Below are positions 22,873-33,493 of a stretch of DNA of 64,000 nucleotides, in pieces. Source of the stretch: Zootoca vivipara (Eukaryota). A program made the position numbers. Each line of letters starts with the position of its first letter. Position 1 is the first letter of the stretch. The stretch is taken from positions 17,236,001 through 17,300,000 of the forward strand of contig NC_083279.1 of the NCBI RefSeq assembly GCF_963506605.1, read 5' to 3'.

Positions 22873-25800
22873 TGTAAGTGTGTTTAAGACAAACACATGA
22901 AAACATGTTGAAATCTAAAATAGGATTTGGTCAAAATACTTACTTGCGTTTTTTGCAGTCATTCCTCCCTCCCTTTTGTGGGTAAAATGCCTCTCAGAAT
23001 TAGGCATTTCAAGAAATTCCAAAACTGTCACTATTACAACGATAAAGAATTCCAGAAGTATCTATCCAAACTAGATGAATTAGCATTAAAATGGCAAATG
23101 CAGTTTAATGTAAGGAAGTGCAAAGTGATCACCCAGGGGCAAAAAAAATTCTATATTCATATATATACTAGTGGGGGTCTGATTTTGTAACAAATAACCA
23201 TATAATGCAGTTGTCATGGATAATTCAATGAAAATCAGAACCATAGAACTGTAGAGTTGGAAGGGACCCTGAGGATCATCTAGTCCAACCCCATCAATGC
23301 AGGAATATGCAGCTTTCCCATGCAGGGATCGAACCTGCAACCTTGGCATTATTAGCACCATACTCTAACCAACTGAGCTATCTAGGCTGTCCCGATGTCA
23401 ACCTGTTGTGTGGCGCCCATTTAAAAAAAGGCAAGTTCCATGTTAGGGATCATTAGGAAATGGACTGAAATTAAAACTGCCAATATCGTAATATTATACA
23501 AAGATAAGATGTGACTGCACTTGGGATGTTGCTACAGCTCAAAATGATATTGTAGAGCTGGGAAAGTTTCTGAAAAGGCCAACCCAAATAGTCAAAGGGC
23601 TGGGGCAACTCTCCTATGAGGATACGTTACATTTGGTGCTTATAAAGTTAGAGCAACAAAACAGAGTAGTGGGGAGCTAATAGAGGTGTACAGTATGTGA
23701 TTATTCATAGTGTGGAGAAAGGTTATAACGTGGCCATAATGAAGGTGAGTATTGGAAGATTCAGGATGCACAAAAGGAAGGACTTCGTCATACACTACAC
23801 AATTAAACTATGGAAGAGGGGTAGACCTATTCTTGGGCCTTGGATAATGTGTGAACAAACTCTTGGTTTTGCCTCCATTCTTTATTAAAGCCATTGTTGT
23901 TGCTTAGTCGTTTAATCGTGTCCGACTCTTTGTGTGGCTATGTCCCTCCTTCCCACATAATCAAGACTCGTGACACAGAGATTAAGATTTAATTGGGTGG
24001 TTAAGGCCACAACTTTATTGATAAGCATGTTGAGCGGAATTGGCTTAGGCGTTGGAACCTAACAGACTATATCCGACTCCAACCCGTGTGTTGGAGTCCC
24101 TGAGAAGTTAACCACCAGCAAGGAGCCCCGCGATGTAGATCTACTAGAGCTCCTCCTGTGGCCACCGAAGGGGCGTGCCCTACGGCCCAGGCAACTCCAG
24201 GCTCAGGACCAAGCGACGCCCCCGGAATCCTTTAACGGAATTACTTCTCCCGATTTGGGCAGCCGTTGACGTAATCTGCCCCTCCTCCTTCTATTGTTAT
24301 GCAAATTTCCAACGCCTAACCGCCTAACCTAAGTTGTGACGACATGCTACGGGGTAGGCGAAAAACCCATCATGGCTAGCCCAGTATGGGAAAAGTCCTA
24401 CCCGGCCCGCTGACTAACCAGGCAACCGACTCCCGTCCATAGCAGCGTCCCCTTACCTCTTTTTAAGGGGTGGGTGGGCGGGTGAACTGTTCGCTCCGGC
24501 GAACAAGGGGAAAAGAGGTCGGCTTCCCGCCTGCGGGGAGCTTTAAAACTGCCGGCTCCGCCCCGACCATTCTCATTGGCTGGTCGGGGATGACGCAGGC
24601 GGGAAGCCACCAACGCGTAGGGGCTGAACTTGCAGCCCCTACGCGGTGGTGCAGTCGGTCGGCCCACAACGCCGCTTCCGTCGCAGGCGCGGAAGCGGCT
24701 TTGTGTGGCTATGTCCCTCCTTCCCACATAATCAAGACTCGTGACACAGAGATTAAGATTTAATTGGGTGGTTAAGGCCACAACTTTATTGATAAGCATG
24801 TTGAGCGGAATTGGCTTAGGCGTTGGAACCTAACAGACTATATCCGACTCCAACCCGTGTGTTGGAGTCCCTGAGAAGTTAACCACCAGCAAGGAGCCCC
24901 GCGATGTAGATCTACTAGAGCTCCTCCTGTGGCCACCGAAGGGGCGTGCCCTACGGCCCAGGCAACTCCAGGCTCAGGACCAAGCGACGCCCCCGGAATC
25001 CTTTAACGGAATTACTTCTCCCGATTTGGGCAGCCGTTGACGTAATCTGCCCCTCCTCCTTCTATTGTTATGCAAATTTCCAACGCCTAACCGCCACTCG
25101 AGCCCCCCCCTGGGCTCGCCGCCAATCCGCTCTCATGCCTTAACCAATAATTAGAGATTAATTGGATATTTTAGGGACTTCATATACTGTTTAAGGGGCC
25201 GTGATCCTCCTCTCTTATTCACCTAATTAAATTCTCTAACACGTAACCATTCTTTGATCCCCATTATTACGTTCTCTAGCCAGACATCATTCCCTCTGGG
25301 CGACAGATGAACACCATCATGACGATAAAGGGCTGCTTCGCTCTGTTTTAACGTTGGATGCGAAATGGCACGACCATTCAAAGACAGGACTCTACGGATT
25401 ACGAAGGAATTCAGGAGCCGTCTGGCTCTGTTCAGGGCGATAGGACAACGACCATCACGCCAACTGCGTCTCTCAAGCAAGGAGGACCAAAGCAGCGTCA
25501 TCCTCGGGCAAATGTCCAAAAGGGCATCAAAGTCTCTGAATATTTGTAATTTTAAGTCCACGGCATTGCGATAGGCAAGATCATTCTCTCCAAGCTGGAC
25601 CACCAGTAGGTCAGGGTAGCCGAGTGAAGCAGCCTGTTCCTGTATTGCCGGCAGCAACTCGTCCCACAGCATGCCTCTCCTCGCAATCCAAGACACCTGG
25701 ACGAATTCTGGAAGGCCCAGCCTGTTCCCTAGGCCCAACTCGATGGCCCTTTCACGAGCCCAATGGACTATGCTATGCCCAGCTATCCAAACCCGCACGA

Positions 25801-31800: not shown

Positions 31801-33493
31801 CCGCTTCCGTCGCAGGCGCGGAAGCGGCTTTGTGACCCCATGGACCAGAGCACACCAGGCACTCCTGTCTTCCACTGCCTCCTGCAGTTTGGTCAGACTC
31901 ATGTTGGTGGCTTCGAGAACACTGTCCAACCATCTCGTCCTTTAATTCACATTTTGGTAATTACAAATGACTCAGTTATGAGAGTGTTTCTCAGATTGTA
32001 CTTCAATTAAGGTCATGGGAATTCATATAAAATAAATTCTGAAGGGGGGGAATGTTAAATAATGAACAGCACTTGTGGGTTTTTTAAAAAATCCATTGTG
32101 CTGCTAATTAGCTAAAGTTCATGTCTCCTGACTACAAATCAGGGAAGACTTTACTGACTTGATCAGTTGAATAAAGGAACCAGAGAGCTGTGGTGTTTTG
32201 TTTTGAAACACAAATGCTGTGCTTCCAATGATACTTACTGGGATAATTTGTACTAAAGGAGTTACTGACCACGTTTCTTAAACTAGAAAACATGCACTCT
32301 CTGATCCAGCTAGTCCCTTGCTGGATGTTGAATGATATACACAGAGGTGGGGCCAATAATGTAGAACACTTTTTGTAGGATTATATACATTTCTGTAGAC
32401 TTGTTTTATCAATAACTCTCAGTCATTATAACCGTGGACTCTTATACAGTGATACCTCGGGTTACAGACGCTTCAGGTTACAGACTCCACTAACCCATAA
32501 ATAGTACCTCAGGTTAAGAACTTTGTTTCAGAATGAGAACAGAAATCGTGCTCCGGCGGCGCGGCGGCGTCGGGAGGCCCCATTAGCTAAAGTGGTACTA
32601 CAGGTTAAGAACAGTTGCAGCTTAAGAACAGACCTCCGGAATGAATTAAGTTCTTAACCTGAGGTTACCACTGTATGTCTTCAGAAACTTCAGAGACATC
32701 CAGTAGCTGGAAAAAAAAATATTGGACTAGACAATGCTTTTTTTTTCCTCTTAAAAAATGTTTAGGGTTACTCTCATTTTCCTACTCATATTGAAATACT
32801 GCCTCTCAATGGGGCCAAACTTATATTCAGAAAATGTATAGGGGTATGCATACCCCTGTGCCCCCCCCCGAAAGAAAAGCACTGGGACTAGATGAACTTA
32901 GTCATATTGTTCCAGCTAGCAAAACAATATTCAGCAAGGTGACCAATAATGCAATCTCAAAAGCCAGATCTCACCATGTCTGCATTAAATCACCAGGTTC
33001 TGCCAGCCTTCATCCATATTCCAGTAGTAGAGGTGCATTTGATGGGGTGGAGCCAGAGTGTCACCCTCTGACCCTGGTGTCACTCATGCCCCATCCCTGT
33101 CCAGGAAAGCAGCAGTGATCTCAGTATCGAGAGCAGTTCTGCCCCCACCAGACATGCTGATACTGTCATGTTCCATTAGACTGGAACTTCTCTCCACTCT
33201 TGACGTGTCGATTCATTCTGGGTTCCAATTCTGCCACTCCAGATTTCTCCTGCCTATGACCTTGACCTGCTAAGTTCTACTCTGGCTCCTCATGCCTTTC
33301 ACTAGCCAAAATGGACTAAGACAAAATTACCCCCAGAACTTCACAACCCTTCTTGAACAGTGTGAAGCTGGGGGTGACATTTTGGCGACTAGGCGGGCAC
33401 CAAGTCAAGGGAGATAAAACTCTCCAGAACCTTGGTATGTGGTGCTGCTTTTTATCCTTGACATCATCATTGCTGCCAGGACCAAGATCATAA

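What the first reader, a model, noticed from the sequence alone, without database searches (positions are those of the whole stretch)
23928..31834. Intact, very young Ngaro-type YR retrotransposon with a cargo SGNH hydrolase in a lizard
Seen: four uninterrupted ORFs (gag, RT/RH, YR, SGNH) with catalytic motifs intact; A1=A2 (223 bp) and B1=B2 (397 bp) with no mismatch visible by eye; CpGs retained. Known: Ngaro elements have split direct repeats, and some carry a hydrolase ORF, so the family itself is not new. This copy also has a unique 158-bp spacer (24325-24482) between A2 and B2 and a ~1.76-kb composite leader. Inference: recently inserted and possibly still mobile.
Basis: partly seen in the sequence, partly recalled or inferred. 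Interest (0 to 1): 0.8.

Follow-up and report, generated by a model that had tools for sequence, protein, structure and literature searches.

The report
Young intact Ngaro retrotransposon, lizard-type
This is an apparently complete, recently inserted copy of a known kind of jumping gene, a Ngaro tyrosine-recombinase retrotransposon that carries an esterase gene, lying inside another repeat of a lizard-like genome; it is a very clean specimen of a known family, not a new kind of element.

Summary
On the minus strand, 23928-31834 (7907 bp) has the Ngaro layout A1-[ORFs]-B1A2-spacer-B2. A (223 bp) and B (397 bp) are each 100% identical. There are four stop-free frames: a gag-like ORF1, RT/RNase H, a Cre-like tyrosine recombinase and an SGNH esterase. 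CpG o/e is 0.73, against 0.26 in the flanks. No methyltransferase domain was found. The best relatives are lacertid lizard proteins at 72-76%.

Caveats:
- ORF2 and ORF4 have no ATG ahead of their catalytic domains.
- "gag" rests on position and a weak CCCH finger.
- The esterase is a conserved gene of this lineage, not cargo.
- RT phylogeny against references could not be run.
- "BovB" is unverified.

New points:
- The same 7-mer sits at both ends and at the internal A2/B1 junction, and once (one mismatch) in an uninterrupted copy of the host repeat at 45171-45312. This is the footprint expected of conservative recombination in a shared core, not a target-site duplication.
- The closest solved relative of the esterase is the zebrafish ZfL2-1 LINE ORF1p esterase.
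- A diverged spacer+B remnant lies at 38407-38941.

Verdict: new member of a known kind, of moderate interest.

The parts
23928..31834 (-). Whole element, 7907 bp, sense strand = minus strand: A1 - leader - ORF1-4 - B1A2 - spacer - B2
   Evidence: Repeat borders; open frames; GC 0.534 and CpG o/e 0.73 against 0.26 in the flanks
31612..31834 (-). A1, 5' split direct repeat, 223 bp
   Evidence: 100% identical to 24483-24705. As sense RNA it folds at -130 kcal/mol, z = -7.8 against 200 shuffles
29853..31611 (-). Leader, 1759 bp. It holds a 34-bp tandem array (30721-30963, 7.1 copies), three ~60-nt modules (30181-30237, 30290-30366, 30406-30465) and an AT-rich block (29900-29999, GC 0.12)
   Evidence: Tandem Repeats Finder. 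The modules match a dispersed host repeat at 59282-59340 at 74-93%. No Rfam family and no tRNA were found
28353..29852 (-). ORF1, 499 aa from ATG. It is gag-like by position, with a C-terminal C-x7-C-x4-C-x3-H finger at residues 433-450
   Evidence: zf-CCCH_10 E 0.011, below cutoff. Muscleblind fingers E 0.011-0.37. 18 relatives, of which 17 are named and all lacertid, 41-62% identity. The AF2 model is poor (pLDDT 48.9) and has no fold match (0 of 4 matches at E <= 0.001)
26741..28624 (-). ORF2 open frame, 627 codons, RT + RNase H. It is in the +1 frame relative to ORF1 and overlaps it by 272 nt. There is no ATG ahead of the RT domain
   Evidence: RVT_1 E 3e-12. RVT_3 E 0.012, weak. All 117 of 117 columns that are >=95% conserved among 101 relatives are kept, including D247, Y313-L-D-D316, D479, E516, D541 and D591. 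Frames
25860..26768 (-). ORF3, 302 aa from ATG, tyrosine recombinase. It overlaps the ORF2 end by 28 nt
   Evidence: Phage_integrase E 8.1e-5, below cutoff. Aligns with Cre/Tre over 45-301, E 1.3e-4. R153, K190, H265, R268, W291 and Y299 sit in the aligned motifs
25223..25816 (-). ORF4 open frame, 197 codons, SGNH/GDSL esterase. It is in the +1 frame relative to ORF3 and starts 43 nt after the ORF3 stop. There is no ATG ahead of the catalytic serine
   Evidence: AF2 pLDDT 92, pTM 0.89. Foldseek against PDB: 158 matches at E <= 0.001, the top ones GDSL/SGNH esterases with TM about 0.7. The profile search puts 4c1b_A, the ZfL2-1 ORF1p esterase, first at E 1.9e-5. S15 is kept in 11 of 12, G48, N78 and H170 in 12 of 12, and D167 in 10 of 12 aligned relatives
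24699..25095 (-). B1, internal split direct repeat, 397 bp. It carries poly(A)-signal-like hexamers on the sense strand
   Evidence: 100% identical to 23928-24324. Hexamers at 24790 and 24764. RNA fold z = -2.75 (folded on the B2 copy)
24483..24705 (-). A2, internal copy of A. It overlaps B1 by the 7-bp core 24699-24705
   Evidence: A hairpin with 16-nt arms (24665-24680 / 24690-24705) includes the core
24325..24482 (-). Spacer between A2 and B2, 158 bp, unstructured
   Evidence: No other copy in the element. RNA fold z = -0.27. It is contiguous with B in the diverged remnant at 38407-38941
23928..24324 (-). B2, 3' terminal split direct repeat, 397 bp
   Evidence: Poly(A)-signal-like hexamers at 24019 and 23993
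23928..23934 (.). 7-bp core at the 3' end of the element (the left end on the + strand). The same 7-mer is at 24699-24705 and 31828-31834
   Evidence: sequence context
31828..31834 (.). 7-bp core at the 5' end of the element (the right end on the + strand)
23900..23927 (.). Left part of the interrupted host repeat
   Evidence: 23900-23934 matches 45171-45205 at 91%
31835..31941 (.). Right part of the interrupted host repeat
   Evidence: 31828-31941 matches 45199-45312 at 94%
45171..45312 (.). Uninterrupted paralogue of the host repeat, used as an 'empty-site' proxy. Here the two flank matches overlap by exactly 7 bp (45199-45205)
38407..38941 (+). Old, diverged spacer+B-like remnant of a related element, in the opposite orientation
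   Evidence: 62% identity over 556 columns, E 2e-28. Local alignment score 78, against 11.1 +/- 1.2 for 100 shuffles. No A-like sequence upstream (score 10 against 9.6 +/- 1.4)

Best explanation
The stretch is a full-length tyrosine-recombinase retrotransposon of the Ngaro type, of the sub-lineage that carries a fourth ORF encoding an SGNH esterase. It inserted recently into a short interspersed repeat of a lacertid-like lizard genome.

Shown:
- the split-direct-repeat anatomy;
- RT/RNase H, a Cre-like recombinase and an SGNH esterase with their catalytic residues in place;
- no methyltransferase;
- perfect repeat identity and retained CpG;
- one 7-mer at both ends, at the internal A2/B1 junction, and once in an uninterrupted paralogue of the target.

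Inferred mechanism:
1. A transcript starts inside A1. By eye, A carries CCAAT-, GC-box- and TATA-like motifs (RNA printed).
2. The transcript ends after a poly(A) signal inside B.
3. ORF1 is translated from its ATG. ORF2 is reached by recoding or non-AUG initiation in the 272-nt overlap.
4. During reverse transcription the terminal parts missing from the RNA are copied from the internal A2 and B1. Their junction acts as a bridge, like the internal complementary region of DIRS-1, and yields a closed DNA whose B2-A1 closure has the same sequence as the internal junction.
5. The recombinase exchanges strands between the 7-bp core of that closure and a matching core in the target. This leaves one core copy at each end and no target-site duplication.
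6. The esterase is an accessory protein. By analogy with the LINE ZfL2-1 ORF1p esterase, it may tie the particle to membranes or lipids.
For: Anatomy.
Domains:
- RVT_1 E 3e-12.
- 117 of 117 highly conserved columns are kept, against 101 relatives.
- Cre alignment E 1.3e-4 over residues 45-301, with the catalytic motifs.
- SGNH model pLDDT 92, and 158 PDB fold matches at E <= 0.001 led by GDSL/SGNH esterases.
- 4c1b_A is the best profile hit.
No methyltransferase: none of the sense ORFs hits one. The precomputed Pfam column lists no methyltransferase family for any of the 120 listed RT relatives.
Insertion footprint: the left and right flanks map to 45171-45205 and 45199-45312, overlapping by 7 bp. 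The 7-mer is identical at three element positions and has one mismatch in the paralogue.
Youth: 620 of 620 repeat positions are identical. The 95% upper bound on age is 0.5-4.8 Myr under assumed rates of 0.5-2e-9 per site per year, with or without a 10x CpG rate (the rates are recalled).
Literature, passages only:
- The layout is A1-[ORFs]-B1A2B2 (PMC8547959).
- Amphibian Ngaro-like families have an SGNH ORF and 100% identical A and B (PMC9210276).
- The model implies repeats identical at insertion (PMC6681497).
- A junction trinucleotide is shared with the target in DIRS (PMC7192593).
Against: - RT/RH and YR phylogeny against named DIRS, PAT and Ngaro references could not be run, because no tool fetches them.
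- ORF2 and ORF4 have no ATG ahead of their catalytic domains, so their translation is unexplained.
- ORF1 is gag-like only by position and a weak zinc finger.
- The footprint rests on one insertion and one paralogue, which differs at one of the 7 positions.
- No second copy of the coding part is in the window.
- No protein above 76% identity is among the hits, and the exact ORF1 and ORF3 are not in the collection. There is therefore no direct sign of an amplifying family, though the host's own proteome may simply be absent.
- Repeat identity could be kept by gene conversion.
- Promoter and poly(A) assignments are motif readings only.
Confidence: 0.85

Rival explanations
1. The element is a PAT-like or DIRS1-like member of the DIRS order, not Ngaro.
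For: PAT-like elements also have split direct repeats (PMC4157794). RT phylogeny was not run. Loss of the methyltransferase is homoplasious in some PAT lineages (same paper).
Against: No methyltransferase domain was found. ORF2 ends right after RNase H. There are no terminal inverted repeats with an internal complementary region: one search found 2 inverted pairs, neither of them terminal. An SGNH ORF after YR is reported for Ngaro-like families only (PMC9210276 and PMC7192593). Frog relatives of ORF2 at 48-51% identity are 571-609 aa, which is RT/RH-sized.
Confidence: 0.05
2. The insertion is old. The perfect A and B identity reflects gene conversion between the repeats, or an assembly artefact, not youth.
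For: Only repeat identity and CpG content were measured. There are no population or cross-species data. Identical repeats are also what an assembler produces when it copies a collapsed repeat.
Against: All four frames are free of stops and frameshifts over 4.6 kb. 117 of 117 conserved RT/RH columns are kept. CpG o/e is 0.73 across the whole 7.9 kb, not only in the repeats, against 0.26 in the flanks. The old remnant at 38407-38941 shows what decay looks like here: 62% identity and CpG o/e 0.33. The layout matches the canonical one, which an artefact would not produce.
Confidence: 0.07
3. The 7-mers at the two ends are an ordinary target-site duplication made by staggered cutting and fill-in, not a recombination core.
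For: A single copy in the paralogue and two copies flanking the insertion is also the pattern of a duplication.
Against: The same 7-mer is the overlap of A2 and B1 inside the element. A duplication of arbitrary target sequence would match it with a chance of about 6e-5. The element encodes a tyrosine recombinase and no DDE integrase. [quoted passage not shown]
Confidence: 0.1
4. The copy looks intact but cannot propagate by itself. ORF2 and ORF4 cannot be translated for lack of a start, so it is a well-preserved dead end or depends on other copies.
For: There is no ATG ahead of the RT domain or of the esterase serine. Two of the 11 closest esterase relatives begin with Met immediately before the conserved block. 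No near-identical copy was seen.
Against: Overlapping ORFs are the rule in this order (PMC9210276). Conservation of ORF2 begins where the overlap with ORF1 ends, as expected for recoding. A copy this young carries what its parent carried. The role of the esterase in the cycle is unproven (PMC9210276).
Confidence: 0.25

Closest known systems
[quoted passage not shown]
   Same: Both have four ORFs (gag-like, RT/RH, YR, SGNH hydrolase) and no methyltransferase. Both have split direct repeats with 100% identical A (236 bp there, 223 here) and B. Frog proteins match ORF2 at 48-51% identity.
   Different: B is 397 bp here against 152 bp there. Here a 158-bp spacer separates A2 and B2, ORF3 and ORF4 do not overlap (43-nt gap), and the leader is 1.76 kb and full of repeats. 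The host is a lizard. Whether the frog hits are those very families was not testable.
Ngaro1 of zebrafish, the founding Ngaro element (Goodwin and Poulter 2004; known to me only through citations; paper not held)
   Same: It defines the A1-[ORFs]-B1A2B2 layout, with RT/RH and YR and no methyltransferase.
   Different: The details of its repeats and target sites are recalled, not seen.
Ngaro elements of Cafeteria burkhardae (PMC8547959, passages)
   Same: GC-rich insertions of about 6-7 kb with split direct repeats that interrupt other mobile elements. Isolated AB repeats occur there, as does a spacer+B remnant here.
   Different: The host is a protist, and no SGNH ORF is mentioned in the passages read. 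Their insertion-site tables are in supplements, which are closed.
DIRS-1 of Dictyostelium (PMC7192593, passages)
   Same: A YR retrotransposon in which an internal junction restores and joins the ends, and in which a short junction sequence is shared with the target.
   Different: DIRS-1 has inverted terminal repeats plus an internal complementary region, a methyltransferase in its group, and a trinucleotide. Here the repeats are direct and split, there is no methyltransferase, and 7 bp are shared.
Esterase domain of ZfL2-1 LINE ORF1p, PDB 4c1b (PMC3905857, passages)
   Same: It is the closest solved relative of ORF4 by profile (E 1.9e-5) and appears in the fold list (rank 12, 22% identity). 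It is an SGNH esterase encoded by a retrotransposon, shown to be active and to bind acidic phospholipids.
   Different: There it is a domain of a LINE ORF1 protein behind a coiled coil. Here it is a separate small ORF after the recombinase. That paper does not mention Ngaro or DIRS (0 occurrences).
Cre recombinase of phage P1 (PDB 1crx and others)
   Same: ORF3 aligns over both domains (45-301 against 45-307), with the catalytic Arg, Lys, His-x-x-Arg, Trp and Tyr motifs.
   Different: E is only about 1e-4. No lox-like symmetric site surrounds the 7-bp core. The nearest palindrome has the core inside one arm.

Membership tests
Ngaro (Ngaro-like superfamily, order DIRS) | Encodes reverse transcriptase and RNase H | tested here: met
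   RVT_1 E 3e-12. RNase H-type hits are weak (RVT_3 E 0.012), but D479, E516, D541 and D591 lie in columns that are >=95% conserved among 101 relatives.
Ngaro (Ngaro-like superfamily, order DIRS) | Encodes a tyrosine recombinase instead of a DDE integrase | tested here: met
   Phage_integrase E 8.1e-5, below the Pfam cutoff. Cre/Tre alignment E 1.3e-4 over residues 45-301 with the catalytic motifs. No integrase hit in any sense ORF.
Ngaro (Ngaro-like superfamily, order DIRS) | No methyltransferase domain | tested here: met
   No such Pfam hit in any sense ORF. ORF2 ends after RNase H. The precomputed Pfam column lists no methyltransferase family for any of the 120 listed relatives.
Ngaro (Ngaro-like superfamily, order DIRS) | Split direct repeats A1-[ORFs]-B1A2B2, with the internal repeats downstream of the recombinase | tested here: met
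   A 158-bp spacer lies between A2 and B2.
Ngaro (Ngaro-like superfamily, order DIRS) | RT/RH groups with Ngaro references in a phylogeny | not testable with these tools
   Reference sequences (accessions named in PMC9210276 and PMC4746887) cannot be fetched by any tool here. The only indirect support is 48-51% identity to RT/RH-sized frog proteins.
Ngaro (Ngaro-like superfamily, order DIRS) | gag-like first ORF | tested here: inconclusive
   Position and a weak CCCH finger only. The model is of low confidence, there is no fold match, and the Atlas gives unnamed clusters only.
Hydrolase-bearing Ngaro sub-lineage | SGNH hydrolase ORF after the recombinase | tested here: met
   Described for amphibian families in PMC9210276.
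DIRS1-like | Inverted terminal repeats with an internal complementary region | tested here: not met
   One search reports 2 inverted pairs in 22000-34000, neither of them terminal. The terminal repeats are direct.
DIRS1-like and PAT-like | Methyltransferase domain after RNase H | tested here: not met
LTR retrotransposons (Gypsy, BEL, Copia, ERV) | Whole LTRs at both ends, a DDE integrase and a fixed-length target-site duplication | tested here: not met
   The repeats are split, with A only at the 5' end and B only at the 3' end. There is no integrase. The 7-mer at the ends is also the internal junction.
SGNH/GDSL hydrolases | Flavodoxin-like fold with Ser (block I), Gly (II), Asn (III) and Asp-x-x-His (V) | tested here: met
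   Fold. S15, G48, N78, D167 and H170 are present in ORF4. The Pfam GDSL families score below cutoff (E 0.026-0.081).

The most novel reading that the evidence does not exclude
This lizard Ngaro lineage may be a sequence-specific integrator. Its recombinase would exchange strands in a 7-bp core shared by the closed-junction form of the element and a motif in the tail of an abundant host repeat, so the element would live mainly inside that repeat family. Its esterase would be a module shared with L2/CR1-type LINE ORF1 proteins, which would point to exchange of an accessory lipid or membrane module between unrelated classes of retrotransposon.
Probability: 0.25. Interest if true: 0.55.

Novelty: new member of a known kind. 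Interest (0 to 1): 0.35.

Why it matters
Tyrosine-recombinase retrotransposons are the least understood order of retrotransposons, and they are absent from birds and mammals (PMC4350176, passage). A copy with perfect repeats, four open frames and a readable empty-site proxy only 13 kb away is a rare natural specimen. It lets the integration footprint be read directly: a core shared by the element junction and the target, with no duplication. It extends the hydrolase-bearing Ngaro lineage from fish and amphibians to squamates. One held paper states that Ngaro is absent from lizards (PMC4746887, passage). It also links the Ngaro esterase to the LINE ORF1p esterase, whose lipid binding has been measured. 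None of this changes the picture of the family; it sharpens it.

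Tried and rejected
- Pfam on ORF4 and ORF1 gave only sub-threshold hits.
- Single-sequence phmmer of ORF4 against PDB gave only chance hits (6 at E 0.38-2.3). The profile and the fold search were needed.
- ORF1: the AF2 model is poor. Foldseek gave 4 matches, all at E > 6. The Atlas gave unnamed clusters only. I therefore do not call it gag by homology.
- Rfam at E <= 1 over 23500-32300 gave 0 matches. ARAGORN on the whole window found 0 tRNA genes. No primer-binding-like RNA relation was found for the leader modules.
- No other copy of the coding part exists in the window by blastn or tblastx.
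- The exact ORF1 and ORF3 proteins are not in the 15-billion-protein collection.
- The BovB label for the target was not confirmed. Flank ORFs gave no LINE domain: 0 relevant families for the 7 ORFs lying within about 4 kb of the element and 0 for 5 ORFs elsewhere in the window. The shared repeat unit is only 142 bp in both loci. The ORF next to the paralogue resembles unnamed chordate clusters, with one RVT_1-bearing cluster at score 0.94, which is only a lead.
- No lox-like symmetric site surrounds the core.
- All 101 RT relatives begin with Met. I drew no conclusion about ORF2 starts, because these starts are pipeline predictions.
- The 11 recombinase-esterase polypeptides may be gene-model artefacts, so I use them only as evidence of linkage.
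- Literature: one search was badly framed and useless. Goodwin and Poulter 2004 is not held. Supplements are closed, so the frog copy tables and the Cafeteria Ngaro site tables were not seen.
Copy number and near-identical copies in the host genome therefore stay unchecked.

Full report
OBSERVATION. The window has no N. On the + strand, 24483-24705 equals 31612-31834 (223 bp) and 23928-24324 equals 24699-25095 (397 bp). Both pairs have no mismatch, and identity collapses immediately outside each border. The coding strand is the minus strand, so in the sense direction the order is:
- A1 (31834-31612)
- leader (31611-29853, 1759 bp)
- ORF1 to ORF4 (29852-25223)
- 127 bp of 3' untranslated sequence
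- B1 (25095-24699)
- A2 (24705-24483)
- spacer (24482-24325, 158 bp)
- B2 (24324-23928)

The element is 7907 bp, with GC 0.534 and CpG o/e 0.73. The rest of the window has GC 0.41-0.43 and CpG o/e 0.26-0.27.

OPEN FRAMES. A stop-to-stop scan with standard ATG starts gives four frames:
- ORF1: ATG at 29852 to the stop at 28353, 499 aa.
- ORF2: open frame 28624-26741, 627 codons. It is in the +1 frame relative to ORF1 and overlaps it by 272 nt.
- ORF3: ATG at 26768 to 25860, 302 aa. It overlaps the ORF2 end by 28 nt.
- ORF4: open frame 25816-25223, 197 codons. It is in the +1 frame relative to ORF3 and starts 43 nt after the ORF3 stop.

None of the four has an internal stop or frameshift (0 breaks each). 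ORF2 and ORF4 have no ATG ahead of their catalytic domains. "Four uninterrupted ORFs" is therefore true of the frames, but how two of them are translated is open.

WHAT THE ORFS ARE.

ORF2:
- It matches RVT_1 (E 3e-12) and, weakly, RNase H-type families (RVT_3 E 0.012).
- It has 661 relatives at E <= 0.001 among 8000 scored candidates. The five best are Zootoca vivipara (2) and Podarcis muralis (3), at 72-76% identity. Other squamates follow at 53-60%, and frogs and newts at 47-52%.
- I aligned it with 101 of the 120 listed hits, namely those of 500-700 aa. All 117 of 117 columns that are >=95% conserved are kept in the window copy. These include the RT aspartates (D247 and Y313-L-D-D316) and the RNase H D479, E516, D541 and D591.
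- Conservation starts at about codon 91-110, which is where the overlap with ORF1 ends.

ORF3:
- It hits Phage_integrase below the Pfam cutoff (E 8.1e-5).
- It aligns with Cre/Tre recombinase across both domains (residues 45-301, E 1.3e-4). The Arg (R153), Lys (K190), His-x-x-Arg (H265, R268), Trp (W291) and Tyr (Y299) motifs lie opposite their Cre counterparts. The numbering of the Cre catalytic residues is from my own knowledge.

ORF4:
- It gave only sub-threshold GDSL hits in Pfam (E 0.026-0.081) and nothing real by single-sequence search of PDB.
- It has 11 close relatives at 40-55% identity. Four are named, all lizards (Zootoca, Podarcis, Lacerta, Sceloporus); seven are unnamed.
- The alignment keeps Ser15 in 11 of 12, Gly48, Asn78 and His170 in 12 of 12, and Asp167 in 10 of 12.
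- The AlphaFold model is confident (pLDDT 92, pTM 0.89). Foldseek finds 158 PDB chains at E <= 0.001. Below the designed scaffolds that rank first, themselves labelled GDSL-like protein, come GDSL/SGNH esterases with TM about 0.7.
- With the profile, the best solved relative is 4c1b_A, the esterase domain of the zebrafish ZfL2-1 LINE ORF1 protein (E 1.9e-5).
- A full HMMER scan finds 2795 cluster representatives at E <= 0.001 and 456 at <= 1e-30.
- Of the 159 esterase relatives held, 11 also carry ORF3-like sequence upstream in the same polypeptide. Two of the ten scanned showed integrase-family plus GDSL domains. These may be gene models, but they show that the esterase travels with the recombinase. 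It is a lineage gene, not cargo.

ORF1:
- It has 18 relatives. Seventeen are named and all are lacertid; one is unnamed.
- It has a weak CCCH finger, a long disordered acidic middle and a helical core. The model is poor (pLDDT 48.9) and finds no fold match.
- "gag" is therefore positional.

No sense ORF matches a methyltransferase or a DDE integrase.

INSERTION SITE. I compared the two flanks separately with the window.
- Left flank 23900-23934 matches 45171-45205 (91%).
- Right flank 31828-31941 matches 45199-45312 (94%).
- The two matches overlap by exactly 7 bp in that uninterrupted copy.
- The 7-mer (CTTTGTG on the + strand) is identical at the left end, at the right end and at the internal A2/B1 junction. 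The paralogue has it once, with one mismatch at a CpG/TpG position.
- The 7-mer occurs 9 times in the window on both strands, against 7.8 expected, so it is not rare in itself. What matters is its position.

An arbitrary target duplication would match the element's own internal junction with a chance of about 6e-5. The simpler reading is a reciprocal exchange within a core shared by the target and the element's closed junction, which leaves one core at each end. This is what has been proposed for DIRS elements with a trinucleotide (PMC7192593, passage). Here 7 bp are shared, although part of that could be chance beyond a shorter required core. A single reciprocal exchange also implies that the closed form carried the whole 7.9 kb, and that its B2-A1 closure had the same sequence as the internal B1-A2 junction. 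That junction can therefore serve as the template that restores and joins the ends (inference). [quoted passage not shown]

The shared host repeat unit is only 142 bp in both loci. I could not confirm that it is BovB.

REPEATS AND LEADER.
- As sense RNA, A folds far better than shuffles (-130 kcal/mol, z -7.8, 0 of 200 shuffles as good). It forms a row of hairpins. The first (16-nt arms) contains the core.
- B is mildly structured (z -2.75). The spacer is not (z -0.27).
- By eye, A contains CCAAT-, GC-box- and TATA-like motifs in that order (RNA printed).
- B carries AATAAA and ATTAAA on the sense strand. These are motif readings, not evidence of use.
- The leader holds a 34-bp tandem array (7.1 copies) and an AT-rich block with GC 0.12.
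- The leader also holds three ~60-nt modules that are 74-93% identical to the start of a dispersed host repeat (59282-59473, also 757-952). "Composite leader" is a fair description.
- A sensitive search found a 62%-identical spacer+B unit at 38407-38941 in the opposite orientation. E is 2e-28, and the alignment score is 78 against 11.1 +/- 1.2 for shuffles. Its CpG o/e is 0.33. No A-like part lies upstream, and it sits next to a (CTT)n array. The spacer is therefore unique within the element, but its contiguity with B is old in the family.

AGE. With 620 paired positions and no difference, the 95% upper bound on age is 4.8, 2.4 or 1.2 Myr for 0.5, 1 or 2e-9 substitutions per site per year. It falls to 2.1, 1.1 or 0.5 Myr if the 88 CpG positions mutate ten times faster. 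The rates are assumed from memory. Gene conversion could inflate identity. Against that, all frames are intact, CpG is retained over all 7.9 kb, and the nearby remnant is decayed by contrast. "Very young" is supported. "Still mobile" is not testable here.

COMPARISON WITH WHAT IS KNOWN. The criteria given in PMC4157794, PMC8547959 and PMC9210276 are RT/RH plus YR, no methyltransferase, and the A1-[ORFs]-B1A2B2 layout with the internal repeats after YR. All are met. The SGNH ORF after YR is described for amphibian families, one of which has 100% identical A (236 bp) and B (152 bp). DIRS1-like membership fails on both repeat type and methyltransferase. PAT-like membership fails on methyltransferase. 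RT phylogeny was not testable.

In the held library I found no description of a squamate Ngaro with an SGNH ORF.
- One search matched 53 papers, of which 20 were listed.
- One search matched 15 papers, of which 14 were listed. I read passages in 4 of them.
- One of those papers states that Ngaro is absent from lizards (PMC4746887).

Repbase could not be searched, and RefSeq already lists the relatives as uncharacterized proteins. The ZfL2-1 esterase paper does not mention Ngaro or DIRS.

VERDICT. This is a real, very well preserved and recently inserted Ngaro-type element of the hydrolase-bearing lineage in a lacertid-like genome. It is a new member of a known kind. Its added value is the readable integration footprint and the esterase link to LINE ORF1p. 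Interest is 0.35.

Left open: RT phylogeny, copy number and polymorphism in the host, how ORF2 and ORF4 are translated, what ORF1 is, and the identity of the target repeat. The closed collections and supplements leave copy census and published site tables unchecked.

Noticed in passing
38407-38941 (+): A diverged spacer+B-like remnant of a related element, in the opposite orientation. It is 62% identical, with CpG o/e 0.33. No A-like part lies upstream, and it abuts a (CTT)n array at 38313-38390.
   Followed up: partly
45171-45312, and ORF 45316-45927 (-): An uninterrupted 142-bp paralogue of the repeat that the element interrupted. The neighbouring 203-aa minus-strand ORF has no Pfam hit. In the Atlas it resembles unnamed chordate clusters (0.98), and one cluster in which 44% of members carry RVT_1 (0.94). 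It may be a LINE remnant.
   Followed up: partly
59282-59473, 757-952, 23244-23305, 21619-21659: A dispersed host repeat whose first ~60 nt recur three times in the element's leader (30181-30237, 30290-30366, 30406-30465). The direction of borrowing is unknown, and no tRNA or Rfam relation was found.
   Followed up: partly
18699-19880 (-): A 393-aa ORF whose first 73 residues match the C-terminal part of RVT_1 (E 2.9e-6, just under the cutoff). It is a fragment of another retroelement, probably a LINE.
   Followed up: no
38313-38390, 48062-48166, 61414-61490: Three (CTT)n-type microsatellite arrays that cross-match at 88-99%.
   Followed up: no
RT hit list, P0087, P0103, P0114: Proteins 46-47% identical to ORF2 are filed under bacterial metagenome-assembled genomes (Candidatus Thiodiazotropha, Sedimenticola). 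These are most likely animal-host retrotransposon contigs binned with symbiont genomes.
   Followed up: no
24608-24651 and 31737-31780: A near-perfect 19-6-19 palindrome inside each copy of A, one of five hairpins that make A unusually structured (z -7.8). Its role is unknown.
   Followed up: partly
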